A DNA stretch of 28,485 nt from Myxococcota bacterium (GTDB lineage Bacteria; Myxococcota; XYA12-FULL-58-9; JALHOP01). This document shows, piece after piece, positions 1-22,789 of the stretch. The DNA is taken from assembly GCA_041288095.1 (NCBI GenBank), contig JBGGMJ010000130.1:1-28485 (forward strand). The letters are read 5' to 3'. Position numbers and translations under genes: made by a program. The notes under the pieces were generated by a model, which saw only the letters and a list, made by a program, of their open reading frames with translations, was not told where the DNA came from and searched no databases. Every line of letters starts with the position of its first letter. Positions within the stretch are counted from its first letter, which is position 1.

Positions 1-2
1 AG

Positions 3-3000
3 TGTCGCCGCTTGGGCGCACGCCTCGCCAAGAACTACGACTACAAAGAAGCGAGTGAGTTCACGTCGATGCGCGCGCGCATCGAAACGCTCTTCGCCAA
101 GCACGAAGCGACGATCGGCACGCTGCGCAACGTCGCGACCGAGGGCGGGACGCTGAAGCGCCTGTTGCGCATGACGGTCGGTGCCCAAGGCGGACTCCAG
201 CTCGATGGCATCATTGCCGGTGTCGGTCGCGTGCTCGACGCGCAAGGGCCGGCCCGAGCCTATCTGCAAGACGTTTCCAAGCGGTTCCCCAGCGCGACCG
301 AGCAACTCATGCAGGTCTTGGGTCCGCGTCTCGACTGGTTCGAGACCGCCATCGTGAACGCCGGCACGACCCGTCAATCCGATCCATTGCTGCCGATCTT
401 CGACGGCGCGTGGCTCGGCAACGTGACCGCCGAGCTCCGCCGGGCCGAGCACACGGCTGGGCGCATCTGGAAGCTGGTCGACGGCCTGCCCGACAGCGTG
501 CGCGACCAGATGATGGTCGAGGTCGTCTCGGAAGACGCCATCAAGAGCGCCATGATCGAGAGCGCCGCACGCCGGCTCACCGAACGCCTCACCGGCCGCG
601 GCACCGACGCCAACAAGACCGCGTTCGACGTTGCAGCCGTACAGAGTCGGCCGCTGCCGGCGCTCGCTGGCCGGCCGAGGCTCGGCTACCTGTGCGCGGC
701 CCGAGGCATCCTGCAGGCGCCCGTGGAGCATGCCGTGGACATCGATCGCTTCGCGAGTGTCGCGCTCCGCGACGGTGATCGTCCCGCCTATTCCATCGAG
801 CACGAGCAGCGCGAAGAGGCGAAGCTCACCGACGCCGGCCGAGGTGACTACAACTTCTGGTGCCGCACGTTCGATCTCGACGCGCCACCGCATTCGTTCG
901 TCAACGAGCTCATGGGGTGGCGCACCTATCACGCGCCTGCTCTGCAAGAGATCGTCGCCCGCTGCGAAGCCGATGGCGACGCGCCCGATCTCGAGCGCAC
1001 CCTCGGCGAAATCGCTCAGCTCAGCTCCGGCACGCACTCCATCCCGGAGAGCGATGCACGTGGCGGCGTCGCGCGCATCGACAGCATCGCGCGACGTCTC
1101 GCGACGTCCGTGCAAGCCTTGGGCGATTTGACCCCCCTGCTCGACGTTTCGACACAACCTGTCTCCGTCCTGGTGGCGGCCGCGGCGGTGCTGCCGCGCG
1201 CCAAGGACAAGGCCGCGGCTCTGGAGCTCGTGACCCCGTGGCTGCGTCGACCCGACGCCCGCCTCCGCGAAGCCGCGCGCAAGTGCATCGCCGAGATTCG
1301 CGAGATCGGCGTGACCGACCTCATGGCTGAGCACCTGCGCGACAAAGATGATCGTCTCGTCCAGCTCTTGACGATGAACGACGTCGCCAATCTCCCCAAG
1401 GCATCGTGGGCGCTCGAGCACCTCGAAGAGCTGACCCGCGGTGAAGACGGCGCCGTCCGCGCCTTCGCAGCTCACACGCTCGCCACCCTCGCCAACAACG
1501 CGAAGGACCGCGGCGCGACAGAAGCCGGCAGCGTCTTGGTTCGCCTCCTCGGTCACGGCGACATCCACGTGGTGGAAGTGGCCTGCGAAGGGCTGCGTTC
1601 GCTCGCCGATGCGGGTAACGCCTTCACCAGCAAGCTCGCCGTCGACTGGGTGCTGCGCAATCGTCCGCATCCGCATGTTGCCGGCCTGCTCGAGCACATC
1701 GGCGAAAGCCAGCGCCTCATCGAGACCTTGACGCTCGAGGCTCGCGGCGCGCACGCGGCGCTGGTCGCCAAGCTCGGCGGCCAGGCCTCGCGGCCGCGCA
1801 TCGGCACCGCTTTTCGCAAGCTGAAAAGCAAGCAGGTCAGCCAGCGCAATCTCGCGGACACCGTGCTGAGCGCGGCCCGGGCGACGAAAGGCACGCCCGA
1901 CCTCGAAGCGGTGAGCGACCGCCTCAAGCTGGCGCTGCGACTGGTGAGCAAGTTCGAACACTGGACCACGACACTCGGCGCCGAGCTGCAAGACGCCCTC
2001 ACGACGCTCGACTACCCCGACGCCATCGTCGACGACGCCGTCGCCGAGCTGAGCGGCAAAGAGCCGCGCGGCTACCTCTCGAGTTGCCCCGAGCTGGTCA
2101 CGGCGATGTTCAGCTCGACCGATTTCTCGACCGCTGAGATCTGCGTCCTCGAGACCGGCCGCATCCCCGCGGAGCTCGCCGAGCTCGCGAACCATCCGAT
2201 CACGGCGGAAGGTTCGTGGCGGACTCTCAAGCTCGCGGACACGTTCAAGGACCCGGAGCGCTTCGGCGCGCTGGTCAAGGTCAAGCTGGCCTTGTCCTCG
2301 GATTTGCCGGGGCTGGTCGGCGAGGTCTTGGCGCACATCCTCGACAAGAAGACGCCGACCGCTATCGCGGGCATCGCCTACGACGCCATCGCCGATGTCC
2401 TCGAGTGTGAGATTCCCCTGCTCGATCCGAGGCTCGATGCCGAGCAGCGCAAGGAAGCGCTCGCGAAGGCGGAGCCCCTGGACCCGGCGATCGACGCGCT
2501 GGTCGAGCGCGCGGTGGTCGACCGCCTGGCGACGGTGGAGCCGACGAGCGAAGAAGCCAAGGCGCTCGTGCAGTACCTCGCGAGCGGCGAGTCCGCGGTT
2601 GCCCAGCGCCGCCTGAGCGACGCCATGGATCGCGCTATCAGCGAGCCGCAAGCGCGCCTCATCCTCGAGCCGGCACGCGCCCTGGCCCGCCGCCGCCAAA
2701 CCAGCGCGGACACGAAGACGCCGTGGCTCATCACCGTGCTGCGCGCGGCACCGCGAGCCACCATCGACCAAATCGTCACCGTGCGTGACGCTCGGCGCAC
2801 GACCGCCGCGGCAAGCGATCCCGCGAGCGTTGCTCTCGCGGGCGACCGCGTCGAGACTCTCGCGGCCGCGGTCATGGACAAGCGCGAGGACATCCCCGCG
2901 GATTTGCTCTCACCCCTGCTCGCCACCCTCGCCGACAGCGAGGACGACGCCAGCCGCCAAGCGAAGGTCGGCGGCCTCCGCGAAGTGATGTCCAACAAGG

Positions 3001-4787
3001 ACATTCCGTGGACGCCCGAGCGCATGAACGCCCTGCGCAACGGCTTGCTGGTCGTCCAGGCGAACAACCGTTACAACGCCATCGAGCGCAGCCTCGAGCA
3101 GGCACTCCGCTTTGCCGGACGTCTGCTCGACGCGAACCGCGGGCTCTCCGAGACGGACCTCGGCAAGCACTTCGAGATCCTGGCGCGCTGCTCCGACATG
3201 GACGCCAAGACCCAATACGCGAACAACGTCGTGAAGATGTACCTCGCGCTGGGCAGCGAAGGCACTCTGTCGCCGGTCTTCATCGAGCAAGTCGGCCGCT
3301 GGATTGCCGCGGTGGACGCGGGCACCGACACGCTATCGGAGCGCGATCGCAAGCGCGAAGTCGTTCTCTCGGGCCTGGTAGGTCTCTTGCCGCTCGACGA
3401 CGCGACCATCACACAACTGGTGCAGTCGTGCGCCGCCCTGTCGCTCCAGCGGACCGGCGATGTCTTCCGTGTCTTGAAGGATCGCATGGGAGAGGCACTG
3501 CTCACGCCCGACGACGTCAAGCGCATCGTCAGCAGCGGCGGCAGCGCCGAAGAGAACCTGTCGATCTTCGACAAGATGTTCGGCAGCCGCGTCTCGCTCA
3601 CGCGCTACAAGCCGAGCGCCCTCTCGACCTTCAACGACCCCCTCAAAGACGCCTGGAACGACAGCAACGAGGTCAAGGATGCCAAGCGCGCCATGCGCCG
3701 CAGTCTCGGCAGCCTCTTCGACGTCCTGGCGGCCCCGCGCGGGCAAGCCGCGGATGTCGAGCAAGTTGCCATCAGCAACCACGTCGGCAACTTCGTCTTC
3801 GGTGCGTGGTCACGTGGTGAAAACGAGGCGCGGAACGCGGAGCCGGCAAAGGCCTCCGGCAAGTCCGACAGGGCGACGGTGCTCTCGAGCGCCGACTACG
3901 CGGCTCACAAGGCGAACAGCGATCGCATCGAGGACGCGGCGCGCGCCCGCATCCTCGACGGCAAGCACCCCGTGGAGCAGCAGAGCCTGCTCATGATGCC
4001 GAACAGCATGGCCATCGCCAAGGCGTTCGACGGCTCCTTCGCTCGGACTATCGACACCGAGTGGGAGCCCGCCGCTCAGGGTCCGCGGCTCAACATGAAT
4101 CGTATGATCCTCTCCGAGCTCAACCGCATCGCCGCCGTCAGAGCGGCCGAGGAAGCCGAAGCTCGCGGTGAAACCGTCAACATCAGCGTCCCGAACGTCG
4201 ACGTTTGCGAGGTCCCGCGCGAGGTCGAAACAGAAACGAAGAACGTCAGGCTCCTCATCAACCTCATCATCGACAACTCGGACAGCACCAAGAAGCAGGA
4301 TCGTTTGGGCTACTTCAAACAGCTCTCGGTCATGCTGCTGAACTCATTCAGCGCCGTCGAGAAGCTCGAGCTGTCGAGCGCCCTGATCAGCTTCTCCGAC
4401 TTCGGCAACTTGCTGATGGCGCCCTCCCGCAAACACGACATCAAGACGATGGTCCAGGCGCTCGGCCCGATTGCGCCGGACCGGGGCACGAACCTCGCGG
4501 ACGGCCTCGACAAGAGCCGCGTCGCGGCGTCGACGGGCACCTACGACAAGGTGATTCATATCGTCCTCACCGACGGTCAACCCGATCGACTCGGCGATGC
4601 CCAGGCCGCGATCGCGACTCTGCGAGCCATGGGCCACGTCGTCGTCGGCTTCGGTGTCGGTCCCGACGCCCTCCATCTCGGCAACGTCTTCGGCGCCGGC
4701 GACACCATCTCCGAGAGCGATCCTGATCTGCTCTCCGGTCGCGTCTACAATTATTTGAAGGAAGTGGTGGACCGTGTTGCTAGTTGA
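3..4787 (+). CDS. Giant HEAT-repeat protein with C-terminal vWA (MIDAS) domain; 5'-truncated by the window edge
   Basis: The frame is open from base 3 (TGT CGC CGC TTG...), so the TTG at 12 is probably not the true start. HEAT-like units lie at ~1220-1610 (LVTPWLRRPDARLREAARKCIAEI; LEELTRGEDGAVRAFAAHTLATLA; LVRLLGHGDIHVVEVACEGLRSLA). The MIDAS is complete: LIIDNSDS (DxSxS, 4272-4286), GTN (T at 4488), IVLTDG (D at 4572). It is preceded by GPRLNMNRMI (4080-4109). Confidence 0.88.
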   Translation, partial: CRRLGARLAKNYDYKEASEFTSMRARIETLFAKHEATIGTLRNVATEGGTLKRLLRMTVGAQGGLQLDGIIAGVGRVLDAQGPARAYLQDVSKRFPSATEQLMQVLGPRLDWFETAIVNAGTTRQSDPLLPIFDGAWLGNVTAELRRAEHTAGRIWKLVDGLPDSVRDQMMVEVVSEDAIKSAMIESAARRLTERLTGRGTDANKTAFDVAAVQSRPLPALAGRPRLGYLCAARGILQAPVEHAVDIDRFASVALRDGDRPAYSIEHEQREEAKLTDAGRGDYNFWCRTFDLDAPPHSFVNELMGWRTYHAPALQEIVARCEADGDAPDLERTLGEIAQLSSGTHSIPESDARGGVARIDSIARRLATSVQALGDLTPLLDVSTQPVSVLVAAAAVLPRAKDKAAALELVTPWLRRPDARLREAARKCIAEIREIGVTDLMAEHLRDKDDRLVQLLTMNDVANLPKASWALEHLEELTRGEDGAVRAFAAHTLATLANNAKDRGATEAGSVLVRLLGHGDIHVVEVACEGLRSLADAGNAFTSKLAVDWVLRNRPHPHVAGLLEHIGESQRLIETLTLEARGAHAALVAKLGGQASRPRIGTAFRKLKSKQVSQRNLADTVLSAARATKGTPDLEAVSDRLKLALRLVSKFEHWTTTLGAELQDALTTLDYPDAIVDDAVAELSGKEPRGYLSSCPELVTAMFSSTDFSTAEICVLETGRIPAELAELANHPITAEGSWRTLKLADTFKDPERFGALVKVKLALSSDLPGLVGEVLAHILDKKTPTAIAGIAYDAIADVLECEIPLLDPRLDAEQRKEALAKAEPLDPAIDALVERAVVDRLATVEPTSEEAKALVQYLASGESAVAQRRLSDAMDRAISEPQARLILEPARALARRRQTSADTKTPWLITVLRAAPRATIDQIVTVRDARRTTAAASDPASVALAGDRVETLAAAVMDKREDIPADLLSPLLATLADSEDDASRQAKVGGLREVMSNKDIPWTPERMNALRNGLLVVQANNRYNAIERSLEQALRFAGRLLDANRGLSETDLGKHFEILARCSDMDAKTQYANNVVKMYLALGSEGTLSPVFIEQVGRWIAAVDAGTDTLSERDRKREVVLSGLVGLLPLDDATITQLVQSCAALSLQRTGDVFRVLKDRMGEALLTPDDVKRIVSSGGSAEENLSIFDKMFGSRVSLTRYKPSALSTFNDPLKDAWNDSNEVKDAKRAMRRSLGSLFDVLAAPRGQAADVEQVAISNHVGNFVFGAWSRGENEARNAEPAKASGKSDRATVLSSADYAAHKANSDRIEDAARARILDGKHPVEQQSLLMMPNSMAIAKAFDGSFARTIDTEWEPAAQGPRLNMNRMILSELNRIAAVRAAEEAEARGETVNISVPNVDVCEVPREVETETKNVRLLINLIIDNSDSTKKQDRLGYFKQLSVMLLNSFSAVEKLELSSALISFSDFGNLLMAPSRKHDIKTMVQALGPIAPDRGTNLADGLDKSRVAASTGTYDKVIHIVLTDGQPDRLGDAQAAIATLRAMGHVVVGFGVGPDALHLGNVFGAGDTISESDPDLLSGRVYNYLKEVVDRVAS

Positions 4788-5175
4788 TTCCATGTCCCGC
4801 CGCGCGAGCAAGCAGCTCGCCTATGCCGCGCGCTTCGAGCACCCGACCTTCCTCTACGGCACCAAGCTGGAGGTCGCCGCCGCTCACCTCGAGATCGAGC
4901 GCGCCGCCGGCAGCCGCGTCGAGCTGCTCGACCAGCGCACCATCATGGATGCGACCTTACTCGAGCAGAAGCTCGCTAAAGCGAACAAGCTGCACATTGC
5001 CATCGACTGGATCGTGACCCCCGAGATCGTCGAGACCTTCCGCCGTGCGTTCACGGTCCGCGGGTCGCGCCGATTCTTCGCGGTTCTCTCGAGCTGCGTC
5101 ACCTTGCCCAGCGACCTCGGCGTCGATCTGCGTGACGTGTTCTCGATTCTCATCGCCTGGGACGAGGTGCTGTAA
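4774..5175 (+). CDS. Small hypothetical protein, probable degenerate stand-alone AAA+ alpha/beta core
   Basis: It fills the gap between the two giant ORFs. The GTG at 4774 overlaps the upstream stop (alternative ATG at 4792), and its TAA overlaps the next ATG (TAATG, 5173-5177). Third codon positions are GC-rich. Segments KQLAYAARFEHPTFLYG, HIAIDWI, RRFFAVLSS and LGVDLRDVF parallel AAA core motifs. Confidence 0.75.
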   Translation: MLLVDSMSRRASKQLAYAARFEHPTFLYGTKLEVAAAHLEIERAAGSRVELLDQRTIMDATLLEQKLAKANKLHIAIDWIVTPEIVETFRRAFTVRGSRRFFAVLSSCVTLPSDLGVDLRDVFSILIAWDEVL

Positions 5176-8100
5176 TGCGACGTGTAAGCGGACTCAAAGC
5201 CAAGGCTGGCGCGGAAGGCGCGACCGAATCGACGGAGCAACCCCAGAGCAGACCCGCCGCCCTCCGCATGCAGAACGCCGCGGAGTTCTACCAGGTCCTC
5301 GGCGAGCGCCACTTCGGCGACGCCTCGACCCCGGTCGACGCCGCTCAGCTTGCCAACGTGCTCGGCGTCCATCGCTTCCGCGAGATGACCGCGCGCGTCC
5401 GCGATGAGGAAATCCGCAAGGCGGCGACCACACCGGGCGCGACGGTCACTCCAGATCGAATCTTCCGCGCCTGGGCAGGCCTCTTGGTCGACGACCTCAA
5501 GCGTCAGACCAACGCACCGGCGGACAGCGAAAGCGCCTTCAAGGAGGCGCTCGGCTGGGGCGAGAAGGTCCTGCTCGAGATGCGCTCGGAGCGGCGAATC
5601 GTCTACCGCAAGACCCTGCAGTCGACGACCGACTTCATCGGCATGGTCGGCGCTTACGAGCCCGAGGTTGCTCTGGCGCGCGAGCTCGCGAAGCGCGCCG
5701 AGCTCGGAGGCAGCAGCATCCTCATCGACGCGCTCGAGCGGTGCTACGTGCCCGGGGACATCCAACGCGCCATGGCCGCGCAGGTCACGACCCTCCCGAA
5801 AATCGCCAGCACCGCTCCTCAGGCACCCGCCGCGCTGGTGCAGGTGCGCCTCGACGACCTCGGCATCATCGACACCGTGCTGCTCGGCGACAACGCCTAC
5901 ATCTCCGAGATCGCGAAGCTCCGACAGAGCCTCGGCCTCAAGCGCTCTGTGCCCGGCTTGCAGCTCAACCTGCGCGATCAGGTCGACGGTCCGCTGGAGC
6001 TGCGTGAGACCTTCGGACGGCTCGCCGCCTCCCTCACCACCGGTGTCGACCAAGCGGCGCGTGAGCTCATCGTCATGCTGGCTCGCTTGCAGTCGAGCCC
6101 CGAGGTCACCACCGCGGTGAAGAAAGTGGCCTTCCTCCAGGTCGACGCGACCTTGCGGCGACTCTCGAAGGAAGCAACGGCGGCCGGCACTCAGTCGGCC
6201 GTGTTCGCGTCGTTCGCGAAGGCTTTGGTCGAAGTGCGGGCCAAGTTCGAGGAGGAGTTCCACAAGGCAGCCGGGAACAAGCTCGATCCGGCGATGCCGA
6301 AGATGCTGCGCGACAGCGTCGACAGTCTCATCAGCGACGTCTTCAAGGTCACCGGCGATGCCTTCTTCGCCGCCGAGCATATGGCCACCGCGAAAGACCC
6401 TGGCGCCATCCTGTTGCGCAAGGTGCTCGACGCTCCGGCGCGCGACGCGCTCGTCAACGCTGCCTTGTCACAAGCCTCGACGCCGGCGGCGCGCGCGGCA
6501 CAGATCGCGTTGATCGCGGACAAGGCGAAACGTGAAGCCGAGCTCGCCAAGCTCGTGGCGGCACACAAGGACTTCCGCCCCCCGGCGGAAGCTTCGGCGT
6601 TGCTCTTGTCGTGGCCCACCGACGTGCCACGGCCCAACACCGAACAAGCCGCCAAAGAAGACCGCGTCAAGCAGCTCGCGAGCCTCGGCGACAACAAGCT
6701 GGAACAGCTCATCGAGCAGGGCCTCGGCGAAACCGAAATCTTCAGCGAGCTCCTGCGCTTGGGTGGCCAGGGCCGCTTCCACGTGGGCGTCGACGACAGC
6801 AAGATCCCTCCGGCCATCGAGAAGATCATCCAGGGCCAGGCCAAGCCGGACAAGAACGCTTGGTTCGGCGGCGACACGCTGACGCCGCTGCTCGAGTCGC
6901 CCGCTATCGCGGCGCTGCCGGCGCAAATGTTGGCCGGCGCCAACGACGACGACGTGCGTAAGAGCTTGATCCGCGCCATTCGTAGCCAGAACGGCCAGCT
7001 CATCCACGAGGAGAAGGGCCTCCGCGCGCTGTTGCGGCACCCCGACCCGAAGTGCCGGATCAAGCTGCGGACCGTGCTCGAGGCGTTGGATCACACCGAC
7101 AAGAACCCCGATCCCGCGATGCCCGGACGCACGCTGAGCGCCGTCGAGCCGGGCATCAACGTGATCTTCGCTTATCGCGTCCTCGTGGAGTGCAGCATCG
7201 GCCTCGGCGCCGCGTCGGACGACGACATCCGCGCCGCTGGGCGTAAGCTGCTCAAGCGGACCGGCATCTCGTGCCTCGCGCCCTACGCGAGCATGTCGCT
7301 CGAAGAAAATCTCAACATGCTGATCAAGAAGCCGACTGACGGCGTGCCGCCGGACAGCCCGCACTTCTTGGCGTTGCTCGACCACCTGGACTTGCCCGAG
7401 ACCGCGCTCACCTCGATCGCCGCTCGCGATGATCTCGACGCGTTCCCGCCATCCACCCTCTTCGAGCTCTTCACGCGCTCCGTCGAAGACAAGTCCGTGC
7501 CCGTCGAAACGGTGGCCACTCTTACCGTCGCCGCGACCACGCTTCGCGCGAGCGGTACCAACGATGTCCATGCGACCAACGTGTGGGCGACCTTCAACGA
7601 TCTCGCCACGCGCAAGTACGACGCGAAGCTCGGGTCGCTCATCCTAGCCGGGATGTCCGGTAAAGCGAACATCGACGTCGTCTACCGGGCCGCCGCGTCA
7701 CTCGCCGCTGAAGGCCAGCTCTTCGACGCCAACGAGGTAGCCAACGCGGTCATGGCGCGCGATCCGGTCGCGACGCAAGCGCTCGTCAACGAGCTCGGTG
7801 CCCAGGCCCCGAAGTTCTTCCAAGCGCTGTCACTGGAAACGCGCGCGAAGCTTCTCGAGCGGGTCCTGAAGGGGCTCGAGTCCGCGACCGACGCCTCGGT
7901 GCTCGACATGGCCGGTCCCTGCTTCCAGCGCCTCGCGGAGCTGACCGCGGCTGGTCATCAGCCTGGCAAGGACATGGTCGCGGCGCTCGAGGGCATCGTC
8001 ATCAACGCGGTCACGCGCGTCGCCAAGAATCCACTCGAGACCGCGGCGCTGGCGCAAATCTTCGCCGACGCCCAAAGCAGCGGCGTCGACATCGCCAAGG

Positions 8101-10718
8101 TCGTCAAGACCATCATGACGGACGCCAAGACGAAGTCCCTGCAGACGTTGACGCCTGCTCAGCTCGCCGGTGTCCGCTTCGAGGTCGCACGCCTCGACCC
8201 GAGCAGTGACGTCGCTGATCTCAAGGCCGCGATCCCGGGCGGGAAGCTCGACGTCGGTCCCTACATGGCTGCCTTCGCGCTCGCCGAGCATCGCGCGCTT
8301 CCGGACGATGTCCTGCAGCTCCTCTGCCGCAGCGCCATCGCTTGGGCCGCCGACCAGAAGGCCTTTGGCCGCGTCGTCACTTTCCGCAAGAACCTCGCCG
8401 ATGCCGGTCAGCAAGATCGCCTCGCGATCTTCGACGCCGCCCTCGACGCCGCGATGAAGGACAAGCCCGACGTGTGGAGCGCGGTGCCCGAAGCGCGCGC
8501 GCTCCTGGCCATCAGCAAGCTCGAAGAACTGCGGCCGGAGATTCTCGAGCTCGCCTCCGGCGGCGACGACGTCGGTGAGCGCGCTCGCGCCCTGTGCGAT
8601 CGCATCGCCGCGTCCGGTCCCTATGCAGCCGAGCTCGTTCCGCAAGTGCTCTCGGCGCTGCGCCGCGAAGTCCGTGCCATGCGTCCGTCGCTCGACGATA
8701 TCCACGTCGGCCTCGAGGTCCCCGAGGACCCGCAGGCACCGGTGCGCAAAGCCGTTCTCGAGGTGCCGACCAAGAACTTCAATGGGCTCCCGCTTCGCCT
8801 ATTCCAGGGCGACACCAACCACGGCCGTGTGCCGGACGCGCTGCCTTTCACCGCGACGCCCACGGTCATGAACAACATGAAGCGCATGGCCGAAGCGGCC
8901 GAGAGCGAGGCCCCGTTCGTCGTCTGCTTGGGCGACCCCGGCCCCGGCAAGACGTACACAGCCAAGGTCTACGCGTACGAGACCGGTTCGCCGCTCGTCG
9001 AGCTCGACGGCGGTCCAGAGCGCCGCGCCGACGAGGCCGCCGGCGCCTGGGGACGCGACAAGCACGGCATGCCGGACTACGCCCGCGCCGCGGAGCTCGA
9101 GGTTTTCACCAAGGGCGGCATCATCGTCGACGACGAGTTCCAGGCGAGCCGCAGGTTCATCCTCGAGCAGCGTGGCGAGCAGGCATCGCGCTTCAACAAG
9201 AAGATCCTGATGCGCACCAACGAGACCGAAGTGGTGGAGCGCCATCCGCAAACCAAGATCTTTCTCATCGGCAACCTGCTGCCCGAAGAGATCCCCGCCG
9301 AGATCATGGAGTGCGCGAAGGTCATCTACTTCGACCCGCTCCCGATCGAGGAACAGATTGCGTTGGCTCAGCCCAAGGCACCGACGCTCAATCCCGACGA
9401 CCTCCAGCTCCTCGGCAAGATGCAAGTCACCGTCGAGGTGCAGAACAAGCACGAGAACTTCGGAAAATCGATCGCGCTCTCGGTGCGCAACCTGACGCGC
9501 GCCGCCAAGCGCGCCGAGCAGTTCCGCAGGGATCCCGAGCTCGCGACCGCGCGCTCCGCCCGTGAGAGCTACATCGACGGTGTCGTGAATCCGACGGTGA
9601 AGGCCAAGCTCAGCGAAGGCTTCAAGCTCGTGTTCGGCATCACGCCCGAAGAGACGTTGCCGGACCCCGCGAGCATCGAGCTCAAGCAAGGCCCGCGTTC
9701 GGTCAACATCGGCGAAGCCACCGTCTCGCACGGCCCCCACAAGCCCCTCGACCCCGCCAAGGTCACTGGCTACACCAACGGCATCGAGGTCCCGTACATC
9801 TTCGGCGACCGCGAGCGTGTCGAGCTCGAAGCGATGGCCAAGGCCATGCAGATGAACGAGAGCATGCTCTACGTCGCCGAGCGCGAGTCGGGCATCATGG
9901 GCATGATCGAGGCCATGTCACAGCTCACGGGTCTCGACCTCTGGGCCAAGGACATGACGCGCGAGATCACGGTCGCCGAGCTCTTCGGTGAGACCGCGTC
10001 GCGGCGCATCGACGACAAGAACTTCGAGACGTACTTCGCCCCCGGCATCATCAACAAGCTGAACAAGGCCAACAAGGGCGGCATCGTCGTGCTGCGCCAC
10101 GTCGATCGCCTGAAAGACGCGACCCGCATCCGTCTGCATCGCATGCTCGAGGAGCGCAAGATCCCCGGCGAAGGCGGCAAGATGGTCGATATGCACCCGA
10201 ACCTGCACATCATCATGACCACCTCGCCGAGCGAGAACGGCAAGATCGGGCTCGCGCTGCAGAACCGCATCACGCAGCGTTACCTCACGGCCAAGACCCC
10301 GGAAGAGGTGCAGGAGCGACTCGTCGCGATGGGCGAGAAGCTCAAGGTTCCGGCGATCATCGTCGAGGACATGGTGCGCTATCAAACCATGTGGACGAAG
10401 ATGCGCGGCAGCCTCATCGCCAAGTACGTGCTGCCGCACAACCTACCGCGACCGGGCATGACCAGGCTCATCACCTGGCTCAATGACTTCGCGAAGGTCG
10501 CCAAGGGCACCAGCGGCAAGGCCGGCGATGTCTCCGCGCAGATCCGCGAGACCTTGATCGAAGGCGGCCTCACGCACTACGCGGTGCCTGACCGTCGCGA
10601 CTACGACCCCTCGGGTCAGGCGAAGAAAGCCGATCTCGACCTCTTGCGCGAGATCCTGACCGCCATGGCGGACGGTAACGACGAAGAAGTGCTGAAGCTC
10701 AACGGCGGGATCAAGTAA
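5175..10718 (+). CDS. Giant helical/HEAT-like protein with two C-terminal tandem AAA+ modules (dynein-related/midasin/MoxR clade, AAA_5-like)
   Basis: 1847 aa. Module 1 (~8847-9640): FTATPTVMNNMKRMAEAA, Walker A GDPGPGKT (8931-8954), Walker B GGIIVDDE (9114-9137), RHPQTKIFLIGN (sensor 1), SVRNL (sensor 2). Module 2 (~9795-10718): NESMLYVAERESGIM, ELFG, GGIVVLRHVDRL, LHRMLEERKI, MHPNLHIIMTTSP, ALQNRI. HEAT-like motifs at ~6930-7260 (NDDDVRKSLIRAI; LLRHPDPKCRIKL; ASDDDIRAAGRKLL). Confidence 0.9.
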   Translation: MRRVSGLKAKAGAEGATESTEQPQSRPAALRMQNAAEFYQVLGERHFGDASTPVDAAQLANVLGVHRFREMTARVRDEEIRKAATTPGATVTPDRIFRAWAGLLVDDLKRQTNAPADSESAFKEALGWGEKVLLEMRSERRIVYRKTLQSTTDFIGMVGAYEPEVALARELAKRAELGGSSILIDALERCYVPGDIQRAMAAQVTTLPKIASTAPQAPAALVQVRLDDLGIIDTVLLGDNAYISEIAKLRQSLGLKRSVPGLQLNLRDQVDGPLELRETFGRLAASLTTGVDQAARELIVMLARLQSSPEVTTAVKKVAFLQVDATLRRLSKEATAAGTQSAVFASFAKALVEVRAKFEEEFHKAAGNKLDPAMPKMLRDSVDSLISDVFKVTGDAFFAAEHMATAKDPGAILLRKVLDAPARDALVNAALSQASTPAARAAQIALIADKAKREAELAKLVAAHKDFRPPAEASALLLSWPTDVPRPNTEQAAKEDRVKQLASLGDNKLEQLIEQGLGETEIFSELLRLGGQGRFHVGVDDSKIPPAIEKIIQGQAKPDKNAWFGGDTLTPLLESPAIAALPAQMLAGANDDDVRKSLIRAIRSQNGQLIHEEKGLRALLRHPDPKCRIKLRTVLEALDHTDKNPDPAMPGRTLSAVEPGINVIFAYRVLVECSIGLGAASDDDIRAAGRKLLKRTGISCLAPYASMSLEENLNMLIKKPTDGVPPDSPHFLALLDHLDLPETALTSIAARDDLDAFPPSTLFELFTRSVEDKSVPVETVATLTVAATTLRASGTNDVHATNVWATFNDLATRKYDAKLGSLILAGMSGKANIDVVYRAAASLAAEGQLFDANEVANAVMARDPVATQALVNELGAQAPKFFQALSLETRAKLLERVLKGLESATDASVLDMAGPCFQRLAELTAAGHQPGKDMVAALEGIVINAVTRVAKNPLETAALAQIFADAQSSGVDIAKVVKTIMTDAKTKSLQTLTPAQLAGVRFEVARLDPSSDVADLKAAIPGGKLDVGPYMAAFALAEHRALPDDVLQLLCRSAIAWAADQKAFGRVVTFRKNLADAGQQDRLAIFDAALDAAMKDKPDVWSAVPEARALLAISKLEELRPEILELASGGDDVGERARALCDRIAASGPYAAELVPQVLSALRREVRAMRPSLDDIHVGLEVPEDPQAPVRKAVLEVPTKNFNGLPLRLFQGDTNHGRVPDALPFTATPTVMNNMKRMAEAAESEAPFVVCLGDPGPGKTYTAKVYAYETGSPLVELDGGPERRADEAAGAWGRDKHGMPDYARAAELEVFTKGGIIVDDEFQASRRFILEQRGEQASRFNKKILMRTNETEVVERHPQTKIFLIGNLLPEEIPAEIMECAKVIYFDPLPIEEQIALAQPKAPTLNPDDLQLLGKMQVTVEVQNKHENFGKSIALSVRNLTRAAKRAEQFRRDPELATARSARESYIDGVVNPTVKAKLSEGFKLVFGITPEETLPDPASIELKQGPRSVNIGEATVSHGPHKPLDPAKVTGYTNGIEVPYIFGDRERVELEAMAKAMQMNESMLYVAERESGIMGMIEAMSQLTGLDLWAKDMTREITVAELFGETASRRIDDKNFETYFAPGIINKLNKANKGGIVVLRHVDRLKDATRIRLHRMLEERKIPGEGGKMVDMHPNLHIIMTTSPSENGKIGLALQNRITQRYLTAKTPEEVQERLVAMGEKLKVPAIIVEDMVRYQTMWTKMRGSLIAKYVLPHNLPRPGMTRLITWLNDFAKVAKGTSGKAGDVSAQIRETLIEGGLTHYAVPDRRDYDPSGQAKKADLDLLREILTAMADGNDEEVLKLNGGIK

Positions 10719-10721
10719 CGG

Positions 10722-11573
10722 TCAGCTACTCGAGGCGCTGAGCTTGCGATAGAGCTCGGTGCGGCGGTCGCGGAAGAAGCCGAAGGCGGCGCGGTTGCGC
10801 CGTACCTGCTCGAGGTCGAATGTCGCGGTGATGACACCGGCCTCGCTGCGTCCGAGCTCGGCGACCTTGTTGCCACGATGGTCCGCGATGAAGGAGTGAC
10901 CGTAGAACTCCTGACGCGGCTCCTTGCCAAAGCGGTTGGCGGCAACCACCGGCACGACGTTCGAAACCGCGTGTCCGATCATGGCGCGCTGCCATGGGTC
11001 CTTGGTGTCGAGGTTGGGTTCCTCGGGCTCGGTGCCGATGGCGGTCGGGTACATCAGGAGGTCGGCGCCCTCGAGCATCATGCCGCGGGCGCACTCGGGG
11101 AACCACTGATCCCAGCAGATGCCGACGCCGATGGTTCCGAACTTGGTGCGCCAGGCTTTGAAGCCGGTGTCGCCGGGCCGGAAGTAGAACTTCTCTTCGT
11201 AGCCCGGGCCGTCCGGGATGTGCGACTTGCGGTAGACGCCGAGCACCTTGCCGTCGGCGTCGATCATCGCGAGGCTGTTGTAGTAGCACTGCCCATCACG
11301 CTCGAAAAAGCTCGTCGGGATGGCGACGCCCAGCTCCGCTGCCAGACGAGAAAAATGAGCAATCGTCGGGTGACCCTCGAAGGGCGCGGCCAGGGCGAAG
11401 TACTCGTCCTTCTCGAAGGTGCAGAAGTAGATGTTCTCGAATAGCTCGGGGAGCAGCACGACCTGCGCCTTCTTCGAGGCGGCCTCGCGCGTGAGCGAGG
11501 TGCACAGCGCGATGTTCTTCTGGGTATCGGTGCCGAATGCGGCCTGAACCGCGGCGACGGTGATGTTCTGCAT
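10722..11573 (-). CDS. aguB: N-carbamoylputrescine amidase (nitrilase family)
   Basis: Nitrilase E-K-C triad motifs LLPELF, YRKSHIPDGPGYEEKFYF, ICWDQWFPE, plus YPTAIG and C-terminal GFFRDRR. Start set at ATG 11573 (MQNITV) with a GAGGA Shine-Dalgarno (SD) upstream. It lies 11 bp downstream of agmatine deiminase. Confidence 0.93.
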   Translation of the reverse strand: MQNITVAAVQAAFGTDTQKNIALCTSLTREAASKKAQVVLLPELFENIYFCTFEKDEYFALAAPFEGHPTIAHFSRLAAELGVAIPTSFFERDGQCYYNSLAMIDADGKVLGVYRKSHIPDGPGYEEKFYFRPGDTGFKAWRTKFGTIGVGICWDQWFPECARGMMLEGADLLMYPTAIGTEPEEPNLDTKDPWQRAMIGHAVSNVVPVVAANRFGKEPRQEFYGHSFIADHRGNKVAELGRSEAGVITATFDLEQVRRNRAAFGFFRDRRTELYRKLSASSS

Positions 11574-11584
11574 GGTGTTCCTCG

Positions 11585-12625
11585 TTACGCCGGCTGTTGC
11601 TGGCTGATGCAATGGAAGGCGCCACCACCGCTCAAGATCGCCAAGGCCCTGCACCCGATGACCCGGCGTCCGGGGAAGTGCTCCGCGATAGCGTCAACAG
11701 CGGCTCCGTCGACATCGGAGCCGTAGGTCGGCACCACGACCGTGGTGTTGGCGATATAGAAGTTCAAATAGCTCGCCGGCATGACGCGGCCGTCTTCGTC
11801 GCGCACCACTCCAGGCGAGGGGATGACGTTGACGTTCAAGGCACGCCCCTTGGCATCCACCATCGCGGTCAAGTCGCGCTCGATCTCCGCGAGCACGGGC
11901 TTGTTCGGGTCGTCGTCACGCCAAGAACGCATGCACAGGACCTTGCCGGGAGCGGTGAAGCGCGCCAGCGTGTCGATGTGCCCATCGGTGTGGTCGTTCA
12001 CCAAGCCTTCGTTCAGCCACAGCGTGCGCTCGACACCGAGGTTGTCCTTGATAGCGGTCTCGACGGCCTCTGCGGTAAGCGTTGGGTTGCGGTTCGGATT
12101 CAACAGGCACTGCTTGGTCGTGAGGCACGTGCCTTCGCCGTCGAGCTCGATGGAGCCGCCCTCGAGGACGACCGGTGAAACGAAGGTCGTGAGCCCGGCG
12201 GCCTGGGCGATGCGCACCGCAACGTCGTTGTCGTGGTCGAGGTTGTATTTGCCGCCCCAGCCGTTGAAGGCAAAGCGGGCGCAAGCGGGACCGCTGCCGG
12301 TAAGGAAGAGCGGCGCGATGTCGCGAAGCCAGATGTCGCCGAAGGGAATGGCGTGGAAGTCGACCGGCAAGCCACGCAGATGACGCTCGGCCTCGTGGCG
12401 GGCGGCGTCCGTGGGCACGAGCATGGAGATGCGCTCGCCGCGGGCGCGGCCGTTCTCGTCGCGGTCGGCGATCTCTTCGCAGAGCGCCGTGACCTCTTCT
12501 TGCGCCGGCGCCAAATTGTCGCGCCAGAGATCCGCGGCGCTCGGCCACGCGAGCCAAACGGTGCGATGCGGTTCCCATTCCGCGGGCATACGGTAGCCGA
12601 GACGCTTGGGCGACGGGTCGGTCAT
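11585..12625 (-). CDS. aguA: Agmatine deiminase
   Basis: RMPAEWEPH, DIWLRD, FNGWGGKY, LEGGSI, DHTDGHID, ASYLNFY and GGGAFHCISQQ (catalytic Cys). Strong SD AAGGAGG. Confidence 0.93.
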   Translation of the reverse strand: MTDPSPKRLGYRMPAEWEPHRTVWLAWPSAADLWRDNLAPAQEEVTALCEEIADRDENGRARGERISMLVPTDAARHEAERHLRGLPVDFHAIPFGDIWLRDIAPLFLTGSGPACARFAFNGWGGKYNLDHDNDVAVRIAQAAGLTTFVSPVVLEGGSIELDGEGTCLTTKQCLLNPNRNPTLTAEAVETAIKDNLGVERTLWLNEGLVNDHTDGHIDTLARFTAPGKVLCMRSWRDDDPNKPVLAEIERDLTAMVDAKGRALNVNVIPSPGVVRDEDGRVMPASYLNFYIANTTVVVPTYGSDVDGAAVDAIAEHFPGRRVIGCRALAILSGGGAFHCISQQQPA

Positions 12626-12677
12626 GCCGCCTCCTTACTGGACGACAGGGCCTACGGGAAGCGTGTAGAGGTGCTAA

Positions 12678-13943: not shown

Positions 13944-14920
13944 ACGCCACCGAATTCGTGTATCTGACGATGGGAGTGGCGCTGGTCGTCTACGCGCTCT
14001 CCGCTGGAGCGGACTTCGGCGCCGGTGTCTGGGATTTGCTTTCGCGCACAGTGGAGCAGCGCAAAGCTCTCGAGAAGGCCATCGCCCCCATCTGGGAGGC
14101 AAATCACGTTTGGCTCATCTTCATCATCGTGGTGATGTTCACGGCGTTCCCGAAGGCGTTCGCGTTGCTCTCCATCGCCTTCCACGTGCCGCTCACATTC
14201 GTGCTCATCGGCATCGTGCTGCGCGGCGCCGCGTTCGTGTTTCGTTCCTACGGCCTCGTCGCCGAGGGCACGCGGGCGCGGTTCGGCCGCGTCTTCGCCT
14301 GGGCTAGCGCGCTCACGCCGATCTGTCTCGGCTGGGTGCTCGGCGGTATGTCGTCGGGGGCCATCGTCGTCCGCGGCGAGGTGGTTGAGAGCGGCTACCT
14401 CGCCGGCTGGACGACGCCGTACGCCATGGCGGTCGGCGGTTTCGCCCTGGTGCTCTTCGCCTTGCTCGCGGCCGTCTACATGACCGTCGAAACGGACGGC
14501 GAGGTACGCGAGTGGTTTCGCCAGCGGGCCATCGCCTGCGAGCTGCTCGCGGCCCCCGTGGCGCTGGTGACGTACCTACTGGCGCCCGCGGCGTTGGTCG
14601 CCGGCGGCATCCCCGCTCAAGCGCTCACCGCGGGCGCCGCTTGCGTCACGGTGGCGGCTTTGTGGCGCCGGCGCTTCGCCGTGGCGCGCGCGGCGGTGAT
14701 CGCTCAGGTGGCGCTCATCGTCATCGACTTCGGGCTGGCGATGCGCGGCGACTTCGTGCTGGGCGTCGTCGGCGTCGCCAATAGCGGAACACAAGCGCCA
14801 ACGTTGCCGTTGCTCATCGCCATCACGCTCGGCGGCTCGGTGCTGCTCGTGCCGTCGATGATCGCGCTGTACCGTCAGTTCAAGAGCGCGGAATCGCCTA
14901 GCCCGTCACGACCATCGTGA
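13940..14920 (+). CDS. cydB: Cytochrome bd ubiquinol oxidase subunit II
   Basis: ATGA overlap with the cydA stop. Motifs YALSAGADFGAGVWDL, IAPIWEANHVWLIF, FTAFP, LRGAAFVFR, and many TM helices. The 895-aa ORF call from 12233 is a spurious upstream extension. Confidence 0.93.
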   Translation: MNATEFVYLTMGVALVVYALSAGADFGAGVWDLLSRTVEQRKALEKAIAPIWEANHVWLIFIIVVMFTAFPKAFALLSIAFHVPLTFVLIGIVLRGAAFVFRSYGLVAEGTRARFGRVFAWASALTPICLGWVLGGMSSGAIVVRGEVVESGYLAGWTTPYAMAVGGFALVLFALLAAVYMTVETDGEVREWFRQRAIACELLAAPVALVTYLLAPAALVAGGIPAQALTAGAACVTVAALWRRRFAVARAAVIAQVALIVIDFGLAMRGDFVLGVVGVANSGTQAPTLPLLIAITLGGSVLLVPSMIALYRQFKSAESPSPSRPS

Positions 14921-15191: not shown

Positions 15192-15250
15192 GAGGTGTCC
15201 CCTTAGCGTGCCGTGAGTATCGACGCCCGGGGCCACGGGTTGCGTTTTCC

Positions 15251-16228: not shown

Positions 16229-16245
16229 GGTCCAAAACCTAACGA

Positions 16246-22717: not shown

Positions 22718-22789
22718 GGACGCATTCCAAGTTGCACGGCACGGCCCAAACACCATAAAGAAGCGGTGCAATTCGGCTGGAGCCCCAGA

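What the first reader, a model, noticed from the sequence alone, without database searches (positions are those of the whole stretch)
3..10718. Candidate split, midasin-like bacterial mechano-ATPase: giant HEAT-vWA protein + mini pseudo-AAA + giant HEAT-tandem-AAA protein
Seen: three co-oriented genes with overlapping stop/start codons. They encode a >1590-aa helical protein ending in an intact MIDAS, a ~130-aa protein, and an 1847-aa helical protein ending in two AAA+ modules. Known: MoxR-clade AAA+ ATPases work with vWA partners (RavA-ViaA, NorQ-NorD, CbbQ-CbbO, CoxD-CoxE), but those ATPases carry a single AAA module of a few hundred residues. Tandem AAA modules of this clade plus a MIDAS is the architecture of eukaryotic midasin/Rea1 and VWA8. 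The motif style here recalls midasin modules (F..TPT...N..RMA..A before Walker A, xHPxxxIFxxxN, SVRNL). Inference: this is a multi-subunit bacterial remodelling machine in which long alpha-solenoids on both partners scaffold or select a large client. It could serve complex assembly, or it could be a conflict/predation system like the MoxR-vWA ternary systems of multicellular bacteria. I do not recognise this architecture as a named system.
Basis: partly seen in the sequence, partly recalled or inferred. Interest (0 to 1): 0.88.

Follow-up and report, generated by a model that had tools for sequence, protein, structure and literature searches.

The report
Split bacterial midasin-like ATPase machine
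Three adjoining genes of an uncultured bacterium encode a rare three-part relative of the eukaryotic motor protein midasin (a giant arm ending in a metal-dependent gripper domain, a tiny dead ATPase-like protein, and a giant arm ending in one live and one dead ATPase module), whose cellular target is still unknown.

Summary
The window carries three co-oriented genes. g1 (3-4787) is cut by the contig end and is about 2100 aa when complete; it ends in a vWA domain with a full MIDAS motif. g2 is 127-133 aa. g3 is 1847 aa and ends in two AAA+ modules. The g3 family profile matches solved midasin at E 5e-75, against CbbQ at 4e-12 and NorQ at 1e-7. The folded tandem superposes best on Mdn1 AAA3-AAA4 (Z 24.9). 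In 7 of 7 family members, module a keeps Walker A, Walker B and sensor 1 but lacks the arginine finger. Module b has lost those three motifs but keeps the finger. This implies one composite ATP site per chain. g2 models as a lid-less, P-loop-less AAA+ core and is predicted to dock on module b's lid (score 0.73, best control 0.00). The triad is syntenic in all 4 genomes of one genus and evolves faster than its neighbours. It is a degenerate offshoot of a tandem-AAA_5 plus vWA class found elsewhere in the phylum. The same genome also encodes a 4157-aa single-chain protein with six AAA modules and vWA domains. The client, the stoichiometry and the AAA-vWA contact are untested. I file it as a new variant of a known kind.

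The parts
3..4787 (+). g1, C-terminal 1594 aa of a ~2100-aa protein: long non-membrane arm plus a C-terminal vWA domain
   Evidence: ORF. The N-terminus lies on contig C201. Orthologues are 51-73% identical.
1068..1607 (+). HEAT/Arm-like stretch of g1 (residues ~356-535), weak
   Evidence: Pfam HEAT_2 7.5e-6 (26.6 bits, cut-off 27.7), plus weaker Arm and HEAT hits. PADLOC OloA 4.9e-5 over residues 356-533.
4248..4784 (+). vWA domain of g1 with the MIDAS motif (DNSDS at 4272-4286, GTN at 4485-4493; the D of TDG is D1524, inside VLTDGQ at 4563-4580)
4774..5175 (+). g2, 133 aa from GTG 4774 or 127 aa from ATG 4792: an AAA+-like alpha/beta core without P-loop and without lid
   Evidence: It has 12 close homologues only. 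It is predicted to bind the g3 C-terminus.
5175..8744 (+). g3 N-terminal extension (~1190 aa), no recognised domain
   Evidence: No Pfam, NCBIfam or PDB hit. It is conserved into the distant family members P0010 and P0011. The Atlas gave no usable hit.
8880..9644 (+). g3 AAA module a (large domain 1236-1400 plus lid): live. Walker A is GDPGPGKT (8931-8954), Walker B is IIVDDEF (9120-9140), sensor-1 is N1367, the lid carries SVRNL (9480-9494). There is no arginine finger (AEIMECAKV, 9297-9323).
9828..10715 (+). g3 AAA module b (large domain 1552-1717, lid and C-terminal helices): Walker A, Walker B and sensor 1 are lost (AERESGIMG, IVVLRHVD, IIMTTS). The arginine finger R1698 is kept (LALQNRIT, 10251-10274). 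The lid helices are the predicted g2 docking site.

Best explanation
g1, g2 and g3 form one cytoplasmic AAA+/vWA machine of the dynein-midasin branch, split over three chains. Shown: g3 ends in a tandem AAA cassette that is homologous as a unit to fully active tandem-AAA_5 proteins of the same phylum. Shown: its fold is closest to two neighbouring modules of the Mdn1/Rea1 ring. Shown: module a keeps the ATP-binding and hydrolysis motifs, and module b keeps only the arginine finger. Inferred: each g3 chain has one composite ATP site at the a|b interface, as dynein's AAA1 site is completed by AAA2 (that comparison is recalled, not from a call). The b-to-next-module interface would then be dead. 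Predicted by modelling: g2, a stripped AAA+ large domain, sits on the lid and C-terminal helices of module b. Inferred: a lid normally packs against the next large domain of a ring, so g2 acts either as a third, silent ring position or as a cap. Inferred from MoxR-vWA systems and midasin: the MIDAS of g1 grips an acidic residue of a client or of the ATPase. ATP turnover at a|b is then converted, through the ~1200-aa and ~1900-aa arms, into pulling or remodelling of a large client. The client is unknown.
For: Midasin affinity, sequence: the family profile against the PDB gives midasin at 5e-75 to 2.5e-60, CbbQ at 4e-12 and NorQ at 1e-7. A phmmer search of 1.84 billion representatives gave 75 hits at E<=1e-3; of the 13 I scanned with Pfam, 3 were true midasins, one was an archaeal six-AAA+vWA protein, and the rest were AAA_5 proteins, five of them also with midasin-type lids. 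Midasin affinity, fold: Mdn1 6or5 Z 24.9 (rmsd 4.1, 510 aligned), Rea1 6hyp Z 21.9, dynein about 20-22. NorQ and CbbQ reach 17-19 but cover one module only. The model has pLDDT 84.6 and pTM 0.81, with helix-2-insert and pre-sensor-1 hairpins in both modules. Motifs: complementary motif loss in 7 of 7 family members and in the short relative P0014; the one module recovered from P0012 has the module-a pattern. Both modules are intact in all 12 proteins of the other tandem classes. Homology: the cassette aligns to the active class at hhalign E 1.7e-47 over 664 columns. g2: AAA+ cores head both fold searches (33 matches at E<=1e-3, RuvB TMq 0.66; rows 1-19 are all AAA+, Z 10.6-9.4). Complex: score 0.73, best control 0.00; at least 86% of contacts shared between runs; partner pLDDT at least 65; the mark was reached by 116 of 157 solved complexes and 2 of 215 mismatched pairs. 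Co-inheritance: the triad is syntenic in 4 of 4 genomes of the genus. g1, g2 and g3 homologues also share an ENA contig of 35,741 bases, and g1 and g2 homologues share a Logan contig of 27,711 bases. vWA partners lie directly upstream of related tandem-AAA genes in 2 of 7 other loci.
Against: No AAA-vWA contact was tested, because the single complex job went to g2. The g2 model is only moderate (pLDDT 66.4, 4-row alignment). g2 shows no sequence homology to AAA profiles (hhalign probability under 2%). The complex score is the model's own confidence, and my own alignments were used, so the calibration holds only roughly. The arms were not folded and have no recognised domains. The neighbouring genes (polyamine synthesis, cytochrome bd, PDH E1) say nothing about a client. 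The triad evolves much faster than its neighbours: 51-75% identity for g1 and g3 against 87-92% for the flanking genes. That is unusual for a housekeeping assembly factor. The ring stoichiometry (3 x g3, or 2 x g3 plus 2 x g2, or no ring) is open. The gene contexts of the distant members P0008, P0010 and P0011 could not be fetched.
Confidence: 0.55

Rival explanations
1. A conflict system (anti-phage, inter-bacterial or predation-related), analogous to the MoxR-vWA ternary systems. The AAA-vWA pair would sense or process an invader or prey protein, and the fast-evolving arms would provide specificity.
For: The triad diverges far faster than the flanking housekeeping genes: g1 is 51-73% and g3 54-75% identical, against 87-92% for the neighbours. 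Accessory genes are variable: g4 is present in 2 of 4 loci and g0 was detected in 3 of 4. The distribution is narrow and patchy: full-length matches in 4 of 401 genomes of the phylum. The NCBI title of one orthologous MAG names Bdellovibrionales; that this order is largely predatory is my recollection.
Against: No effector domain (nuclease, protease, TIR, pore-former) was found by Pfam or NCBIfam in g1-g3, g0 or g4. PADLOC gave only two weak partial hits: OloA at 20.8 bits on the HEAT-like stretch and IetA at 14.2 bits on the P-loop. The chromosomal position, next to the same housekeeping genes, is fixed in all four genomes. There was no match on plasmids or phages. No third component of the published ternary systems is present.
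Confidence: 0.15
2. The machine is not a ring. a-b-g2 forms a closed three-domain ATP switch on a single chain, and g1 and g3 act as a nucleotide-gated scaffold or tether of a cytoskeletal or adhesive kind, not as a processive remodeller.
For: The only complete ATP site is intramolecular, so oligomerisation is not needed for chemistry. g2 is predicted to occupy module b's lid surface, where a next ring subunit would be expected (inference). The arms are very long. Accessory proteins g0 and g4 each have one TM-like segment and could anchor the assembly.
Against: The cassette is homologous to fully active tandem proteins. In the model its two modules superpose on ring neighbours of Mdn1, Rea1 and dynein. 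Alternating live and dead modules are common in ring AAA+ proteins (general knowledge, recalled). No stoichiometry was modelled.
Confidence: 0.2
3. A decaying, functionless remnant of an active tandem-AAA plus vWA system.
For: Module b has lost Walker A, Walker B and sensor 1, and module a has lost its arginine finger. Sequence divergence is fast.
Against: The 1847-aa and ~2100-aa frames are intact in all four genomes, down to 51-54% identity. The losses are complementary and identical in 7 of 7 members, including members only 21-24% identical to the window protein. K1259, E1321, N1367, R1438, R1698 and the MIDAS residues are invariant. g2 is the best conserved of the three.
Confidence: 0.03

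Closest known systems
Midasin (Rea1 / Mdn1 / MDN1), the eukaryotic pre-60S remodelling AAA+ protein
   Same: The AAA modules are of the same AAA_5 type. They are the best sequence match (5e-75) and the best structural match (Z 24.9 and 21.9). They share the pre-Walker-A TPT..N motif, the HPxF..N sensor block and the lid R motif. A MIDAS-bearing vWA domain belongs to the system, and long non-AAA arms are present.
   Different: There are two modules per chain instead of six, and only one is live. The vWA is on a separate protein. No D/E-rich tether was seen. The vWA is not specifically midasin-like: its best PDB matches are PTMP1 and TRAP. An extra free pseudo-AAA protein is present. The host is bacterial. 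In the module tree the family does not nest within any one midasin module.
MoxR-vWA two-component systems (NorQ-NorD, CbbQ-CbbO, RavA-ViaA, CoxD-CoxE)
   Same: A helix-2-insert-clade AAA+ is encoded next to a partner that ends in a MIDAS vWA domain, and a chaperone or remodelling logic is presumed. NorQ and CbbQ superpose on single modules at Z 17-19.
   Different: Those ATPases are single-module homohexamers of about 260-500 aa. Here there is a live/dead tandem on an 1847-aa chain, a vWA partner of about 2100 aa, and a third pseudo-AAA subunit. Sequence affinity to CbbQ and NorQ is far weaker than to midasin. The genome's four AAA_3 MoxRs are not hit by the family-only module HMM.
Unnamed tandem-AAA_5 proteins with N-terminal extensions and vWA partners, found in the same phylum (loci L024-L030) and noted earlier in this scan as a widespread two-gene system
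   Same: The whole tandem cassette is homologous (hhalign E 1.7e-47 over 664 columns). The N-terminal extensions are long, in 1277-1782-aa proteins. An upstream protein with a C-terminal vWA is present in L026 and L028.
   Different: In those proteins both modules keep Walker A, Walker B, sensor 1 and the arginine finger. Their first module carries a ~40-aa insert. No g2-like gene was found outside the narrow clade. The N-terminal arms and the vWA partners are not homologous beyond the vWA domain.
Single-chain prokaryotic six-AAA plus vWA giants (G000:C190, 4157 aa; the archaeal protein P0015; earlier scan notes on Omnitrophota)
   Same: The same AAA_5 module type is combined with vWA. Live and dead modules are mixed.
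   Different: Those giants are fused in one chain with six modules. Here the parts are split over three chains with two modules.
Cytoplasmic and axonemal dynein motor domain
   Same: Dynein motor domains are the top Foldseek matches for the tandem (E 2.7e-17, TMq 0.57-0.59). The modelled modules superpose on dynein's AAA1-AAA2 region (chain residues 1737-2346, Z up to 21.9); that AAA2 supplies the arginine finger of dynein's AAA1 site is recalled.
   Different: There is no stalk, microtubule-binding domain or linker, sequence identity is only 11-13%, and there are two modules, not six.

Membership tests
Midasin (Rea1/Mdn1/MDN1) | Six concatenated AAA modules in one polypeptide | tested here: not met
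   Two modules per g3 chain. No further AAA gene lies within about 3 kb upstream in C201 or the orthologous loci.
Midasin (Rea1/Mdn1/MDN1) | AAA_5-type modules with helix-2 insert and pre-sensor-1 hairpin, closest to midasin modules | tested here: met
   PDB profile search: midasin 5e-75 against CbbQ 4e-12. VIA: Mdn1 Z 24.9. Both hairpins appear in the DSSP string of the model.
Midasin (Rea1/Mdn1/MDN1) | Midasin-type lid domains (Pfam AAA_lid_7, AAA_lid_5, MDN1_4th) | tested here: inconclusive
   The window protein has no lid hit at E<=0.1. The distant family members P0010 and P0011 hit AAA_lid_7 at 5.6e-7 and 7.2e-5. The structural alignment to Mdn1 spans model residues 16-653, which include both lids, with 510 residues aligned.
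Midasin (Rea1/Mdn1/MDN1) | Linker, D/E-rich tract and MIDAS domain in cis, C-terminal to the ring | tested here: not met
   The vWA is on the separate protein g1, upstream of g3. I saw no long acidic tract before the vWA in the translation.
Midasin (Rea1/Mdn1/MDN1) | MIDAS motif DxSxS...T...D | tested here: met
   D1424, S1426, S1428, T1496 and D1524 are invariant in 4 of 4 orthologues.
MoxR-vWA two-component systems | Single-module MoxR ATPase that forms a homohexamer | tested here: not met
   g3 carries a live/dead tandem on one chain. Oligomeric state was not tested.
MoxR-vWA two-component systems | Adjacent gene for a vWA/MIDAS partner | tested here: met
   g1 ends 388 nt upstream of g3 with only g2 between them. 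This order is conserved in four genomes.
MoxR-vWA two-component systems | Physical AAA-vWA interaction | not tested
Tandem-AAA_5 + vWA class of the phylum (unnamed) | Tandem cassette homologous as a unit | tested here: met
   hhalign probability 100%, E 1.7e-47, 664 columns.
Tandem-AAA_5 + vWA class of the phylum (unnamed) | Both modules catalytically intact | tested here: not met
   Module b lacks Walker A, Walker B and sensor 1 in 7 of 7 family members. All 12 proteins of the other tandem classes keep them.
MoxR-vWA ternary conflict systems (Kaur et al. 2020, PMC7159879; passages read) | [quoted passage not shown] | tested here: not met
   Pfam found no such domains in g1-g3, g0 or g4. PADLOC gave only weak partial hits.
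AAA+ superfamily (for g2) | AAA+ alpha/beta core fold | tested here: met
   Foldseek: 33 matches at E<=1e-3, headed by RuvB (TMq 0.66). VIA wide: rows 1-19 are all AAA+ large domains, Z 10.6-9.4, with 121-133 of 133 residues aligned. The model is only moderate (pLDDT 66.4).
AAA+ superfamily (for g2) | Walker A and B motifs, lid domain, detectable sequence homology | tested here: not met
   The alignment shows no GxxxxGK[ST] and no hhhhDE. At 127-133 aa there is no room for a lid. Pfam and PDB sequence searches were empty. hhalign against both AAA profiles gave probability under 2%.

The most novel reading that the evidence does not exclude
g2 is a free-standing third ring position. The working particle would be a pseudo-hexamer of two g3 chains (a-b) and two g2 chains, or a trimer of g3 capped by g2, with only one live ATP site per g3. 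It would carry two kinds of giant arm, one ending in a MIDAS gripper. That would make it a minimal, split, mostly dead 'proto-midasin'. It would show how dynein/midasin-type rings with fixed live and dead positions can be assembled from, and perhaps evolved out of, bacterial tandem modules. In this predator-like lineage it would serve a fast-evolving, lineage-specific task.
Probability: 0.15. Interest if true: 0.8.

Novelty: new variant of a known kind. Interest (0 to 1): 0.6.

Why it matters
The papers I could read place the concatenated dynein/midasin AAA ring at the base of eukaryotes, derived from single-module MoxR ATPases (PMC3495828, passages read). I found no paper on prokaryotic midasin-like proteins in three full-text searches.

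This operon adds a bacterial system built from midasin-type modules in a two-module, one-live-site format. It has a separate MIDAS subunit and a separate orphan pseudo-AAA subunit.

Because the parts are on separate chains, several questions become directly testable with small constructs:
- how many live sites such a motor needs;
- what a dead module contributes (here, only the arginine finger);
- how a MIDAS gripper couples to the ATPase.

It also documents, within one genome, both a split and a fused (six-module plus vWA) version of the same module type.

Tried and rejected
- **Arm homology.** g1 and g3 helical parts: hhalign probability 0.3%. Rejected.
- **g1 against other vWA partners.** Against the partners in L026 and L028, only the vWA domains align weakly.
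- **g2 as a recognisable split-off AAA module by sequence.** Rejected.
- **Known defence system.** PADLOC gave nothing convincing.
- **Mobile element.** No tblastn match on plasmids or phages.
- **Contexts of distant members.** The genome-contig scan returned one locus only. Two metagenome scans, with A1 and with A6, returned none. The neighbourhoods of P0008, P0010 and P0011 therefore remain unknown.
- **ESM Atlas on the g3 arm.** No usable hit.
- **Tree building.** Its deep nodes are weak (0.00-0.5). I therefore reject any claim that modules a and b are orthologous to particular midasin modules. The higher HMM scores on AAA3 and AAA5 may only reflect that those modules lack inserts.
- **MoxR outgroup.** It was limited to the four AAA_3 genes of this genome. 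CbbQ, NorQ and RavA were compared only through the PDB searches.
- **NCBIfam.** Nothing useful.
- **Earlier scan notes.** Nothing for this genome or this sequence.
- **Garbarino and Gibbons 2002.** Not held, so I did not see its statements on module relationships.
Full report
**1. Observation**

The window is the first 28,485 bases of contig C130 of a 5.85-Mb, 212-contig assembly that is 90% complete. GC content is 63-71%.

Three co-oriented frames fill positions 3-10718:
- g1: 3..4787, open at the 5' end, 1594 aa.
- g2: 4774..5175, 133 aa from a GTG.
- g3: 5175..10718, 1847 aa.

The g2 stop and the g3 start share one base (TAATG). g1 and g2 overlap by 14 nt only if g2 starts at GTG 4774. The conserved ATG at 4792, which public gene calls use (127 aa), leaves a 4-nt gap.

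g1 is cut by the contig end. Contig C201, read in reverse complement, overlaps the first 204 residues at 94% identity. From its first start codon it encodes 710 residues of g1, about 506 of them upstream of the window's first residue. That gives about 2100 aa in total. Complete orthologues have first-start ORFs of 2098, 2143 and 2117 aa. The 94% overlap probably reflects strain heterogeneity in a metagenome-assembled genome (inference).

**2. The three proteins**

*g1.*
- Pfam sees only a weak HEAT_2/Arm/HEAT stretch at residues 386-535, below the gathering score.
- The L004 orthologue hits VWA_2 at 5.1e-8.
- A profile of four orthologues hits vWA structures in the PDB: PTMP1 at 5e-9, and TRAP more weakly (E 0.047).
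- The MIDAS residues D1424, S1426, S1428, T1496 and D1524 are invariant.
- There are no convincing TM segments.

*g3.*
- Pfam finds AAA_5 at 1578-1687 and a borderline AAA at 1251-1386.
- A nine-sequence family profile (9 rows, two of them identical sequences) searched against the PDB gives midasin entries at E 5e-75 to 2.5e-60, CbbQ at 4e-12 and NorQ at 1e-7.
- An exhaustive phmmer search of 1.84 billion representatives with the C-terminal 668 aa gives 75 hits at E<=1e-3. Only 6 are below 1e-30; these are the family itself.
- Of 13 hits that I scanned with Pfam, three are true midasins (MDN1_4th, AAA_lid_5 and AAA_lid_7). One is a 4005-aa archaeal six-AAA+vWA protein. The others are prokaryotic AAA_5 proteins, five of them also with AAA_lid_7 lids; P0013 had no hit.
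- The AF2 model of the 668 aa (15-row alignment, pLDDT 84.6, pTM 0.81) shows two complete large-plus-lid modules. Each has a helix-2-insert hairpin and a pre-sensor-1 hairpin.
- Foldseek ranks dynein motor domains first and Rea1 at rank 42.
- A VIA-align second look puts Mdn1 6or5 first: Z 24.9, rmsd 4.1, 510 residues aligned, chain residues 846-1498. Rea1 6hyp follows at Z 21.9 and dynein at about 20-22. NorQ and CbbQ reach Z 17-19 but cover only one module.

*g2.*
- No Pfam, NCBIfam or PDB sequence hit.
- The four orthologues are 64-85% identical to the window protein, and 74 columns are invariant.
- The AF2 model is moderate (pLDDT 66.4, pTM 0.59). Its order of elements is a0-b1-a1-b2-a2-b3-a3-b4-a4-b5.
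- Foldseek gives 33 PDB matches at E<=1e-3, headed by RuvB, Rif2, RFC, NSF and DnaA cores.
- An independent all-against-representatives VIA search lists only AAA+ large domains in rows 1-19 (Z 10.6-9.4, 121-133 of 133 residues aligned).
- The protein has no P-loop, no Walker B and no lid.
- Profile-profile comparison with the AAA families shows no sequence homology.
- The 'mini pseudo-AAA' reading is therefore supported at fold level only.

**3. Motif logic**

| Set | Walker A Lys | Walker B Glu | Sensor-1 Asn | Arginine finger |
|---|---|---|---|---|
| g3 family, module a (7 of 7) | kept | kept | kept | absent (EC, EN, RH, KH, DH, EE where midasin has NR) |
| g3 family, module b (7 of 7) | lost | lost | lost | kept (N/S-R; R1698 invariant) |
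| 12 proteins of the other tandem classes, both modules | kept | kept | kept | kept in 23 of 24 modules (phy_L026 module 2 reads NRH) |

Notes on the table:
- The short relative P0014 shows the same pattern as the g3 family in both modules. Only one module of P0012 was recovered, and it has the module-a pattern.
- In P0008, module b still reads DD at the Walker B position.
- In P0021, the Walker A columns of module 1 are gaps in the trimmed alignment, so that motif was not read.

In rings of this clade the finger of module i+1 completes the site of module i. This is established for dynein AAA1/AAA2 and for MCM and chelatase SRF/DRF fingers (recalled, not from a call). The pattern therefore implies one composite site per chain at a|b and a dead b|next interface. 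This step is inference from sequence.

**4. g2 docking**

The one complex job paired the g3 cassette with g2.
- Score 0.73 (three runs: 0.73, 0.63, 0.78); best of three controls 0.00.
- At least 86% of contacts are shared between runs; partner pLDDT is at least 65.
- The mark was reached by 116 of 157 solved complexes and 2 of 215 mismatched pairs. The calibration holds only roughly, because my own alignments were used.
- The interface joins g2's a0 helix and C-terminal strand (residues 8-24, 93-100, 111-133) to g3 fragment residues 354-359, 400 and 573-643. In g3 numbering these are 1533-1538, 1579 and 1752-1822, which is mainly the lid and C-terminal helices of module b.
- A lid normally packs against the next large domain of a ring, so g2 may be a third, silent position or a cap (inference). 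I had no coordinates to check the geometry.

**5. Distribution and relatives**

- The word-indexed search of 5.8 billion clusters found 5 g3 relatives, 12 g2 relatives (all 64-100% identical) and 4 g1 relatives.
- Among 61 related genomes, the cassette was found in all 3 other genomes of the genus. In 57 genomes of other genera it was found only as one weak hit.
- Among 401 genomes of the phylum, 13 matched at E<=1e-10. Only the 4 of the genus matched over the full length.
- The other 9 genomes carry matches in open frames of 491 to 4140 aa. In the seven loci I fetched, the proteins are 865-1782 aa and have two intact AAA_5 modules.
- A vWA-ending protein lies directly upstream in 2 of the 7 loci fetched (L026 and L028). 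It was not seen beside the other five, and L030 is cut by its contig end.
- hhalign of the g3 family against this class gives E 1.7e-47 over 664 columns. The alignment covers the pre-AAA segment, both modules, the inter-module beta domain and the C-terminal helices, but not the first ~1100 residues.
- The g3 arm itself is conserved into the most distant family members, P0010 and P0011.
- In the FastTree module tree, family modules a and b are each monophyletic (support 0.90 and 0.91). They lie outside the genome's four AAA_3 MoxRs and do not nest within one midasin module. Deep nodes are weak.

**6. Context and evolution**

- Downstream genes: N-carbamoylputrescine-amidase-like CN-hydrolase and agmatine-deiminase-type PAD genes on the opposite strand, then cytochrome bd, a TPR protein, a PMT_2 glycosyltransferase, PDH E1, three small OMP beta-barrel paralogues and a 3HB-oligomer hydrolase.
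- The same CN-hydrolase/PAD pair flanks the triad in all four genomes.

Identity of window proteins to the three orthologous loci:

| Protein | Identity |
|---|---|
| CN-hydrolase, PAD (neighbours) | 87-92% |
| g1 | 51-73% |
| g3 | 54-75% |
| g2 | 67-86% |

The machine is therefore vertically inherited at a fixed site but evolves fast.

- A 420-431-aa gene with one TM-like segment (g4) follows g3 in 2 of 4 loci but not in the window. The two copies are 32% identical to each other. A paralogue lies on C101.
- A ~220-aa ORF (g0, one hydrophobic segment) precedes g1 in C201. It was detected in L004 and L010 but not in L011.
- PADLOC gives no convincing hit. Plasmid and phage collections give none.

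**7. Interpretation**

The best reading is a three-chain AAA+/vWA machine of the dynein-midasin branch, with one live site per g3 chain.

- *Shown:* the gene structure, the domain identities, the midasin-type affinity, the complementary motif loss, the synteny and the fast divergence.
- *Predicted:* g2 docking on module b.
- *Inferred:* composite-site chemistry, ring or arc assembly, MIDAS-mediated client binding and force transmission through the arms.
- *Unknown:* the client, the stoichiometry and the physiological role.

The fast divergence and the variable accessory genes keep a conflict or predation role alive. The absence of effectors, of a defence-island context and of mobility argues against it.

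**8. Comparison with the literature**

- Zhang and Aravind 2012 (PMC3495828, passages read) state that MoxR gave rise to a six-AAA protein early in eukaryotic evolution, which then diverged into dynein and midasin.
- Kaur et al. 2020 (PMC7159879, passages read) define the MoxR clade and its vWA coupling.
- The NorQD cryo-EM paper (PMC13036017) was seen only as a search listing and abstract.
- Three full-text searches found no paper on prokaryotic midasin-like or tandem-AAA_5 systems. Subscription journals are largely not covered.
- Earlier AI notes of this scan describe bacterial six-module giants and call the tandem-AAA plus vWA pair a widespread, unstudied two-gene system. I treated these notes as leads.
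- I also confirmed that this genome holds a 4157-aa protein with six AAA-type modules and two vWA domains.

**9. Verdict**

The system is a new, degenerate, split variant of the MoxR/midasin-type AAA-vWA theme and not a new category. It is rare and narrowly distributed. Its separate parts make it a convenient model for asking what dead modules and MIDAS grippers do in such motors.

Noticed in passing
G000:C190:4577-17113 (- strand) = L050:2075-14548 (-): The same genome encodes a 4157-aa single-chain protein. It has six AAA_5-type modules (residues 117-277, 395-562, 676-842, 1022-1193, 1491-1645, 1818-1975) and vWA domains at 3624-3775 and 3982-4088. Only modules 3 and 4 keep both Walker A GKT and Walker B DE. 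This is a fused, midasin-like architecture beside the split one.
   Followed up: partly
P0015 (archaeal protein, 4005 aa, named 'AAA family ATPase [Thermoproteota archaeon]' by NCBI): It has six intact AAA_5 modules plus a C-terminal VWA. In the module tree, odd modules (1, 3, 5) and even modules (2, 4, 6) form two clades, each with support 1.00. That is the pattern expected from triplication of a tandem pair.
   Followed up: partly
L004:15544-16806 (+) and L011:3551-4846 (-); paralogue at G000:C101:4327-5535 (-): A 420-431-aa gene with one TM-like segment and no Pfam or PADLOC hit follows g3 directly in 2 of 4 orthologous loci. It is missing from the window and from L010. A 35%-identical paralogue lies elsewhere in this genome.
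   Followed up: partly
G000:C201 reverse complement 157-822 (upstream of the g1 start at 1034): A ~220-aa co-oriented ORF with a Gly/Ala-rich hydrophobic segment. It is conserved upstream of g1 in L004 (53% identity) and L010 (63%) but was not detected in L011. It may be a fourth, membrane-associated component, or it may be a spurious high-GC frame.
   Followed up: partly
window 1-614 and G000:C201:3-614: Two contigs of the assembly overlap over 612 nt at 94% protein identity and break inside g1. This suggests strain heterogeneity in the MAG.
   Followed up: no
window 22766-24423: Three consecutive small paralogous genes (179, 181 and 189 aa) match the OMP_b-brl outer-membrane beta-barrel family. 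They sit between PDH E1 and a 3HB-oligomer hydrolase.
   Followed up: no
L028 (G212:C70:60000-79999) 7653-17428: A three-gene row in a phylum relative: tandem-AAA_5 protein (865 aa), then a protein ending in vWA (872 aa), then a second tandem-AAA_5 protein (1428 aa). The AAA modules of the two ATPases are each other's closest relatives.
   Followed up: partly
midasin hits P0018, P0022, P0025, P0030; phylum tandem proteins L024-L030: In four eukaryote-type midasins, modules 2, 4 and 6 are split by an insert near HMM position 60, while modules 1, 3 and 5 are contiguous. In the phylum's tandem proteins the first module carries a ~40-aa insert at the same place and the second does not. In the g3 family neither module has the insert.
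   Followed up: no
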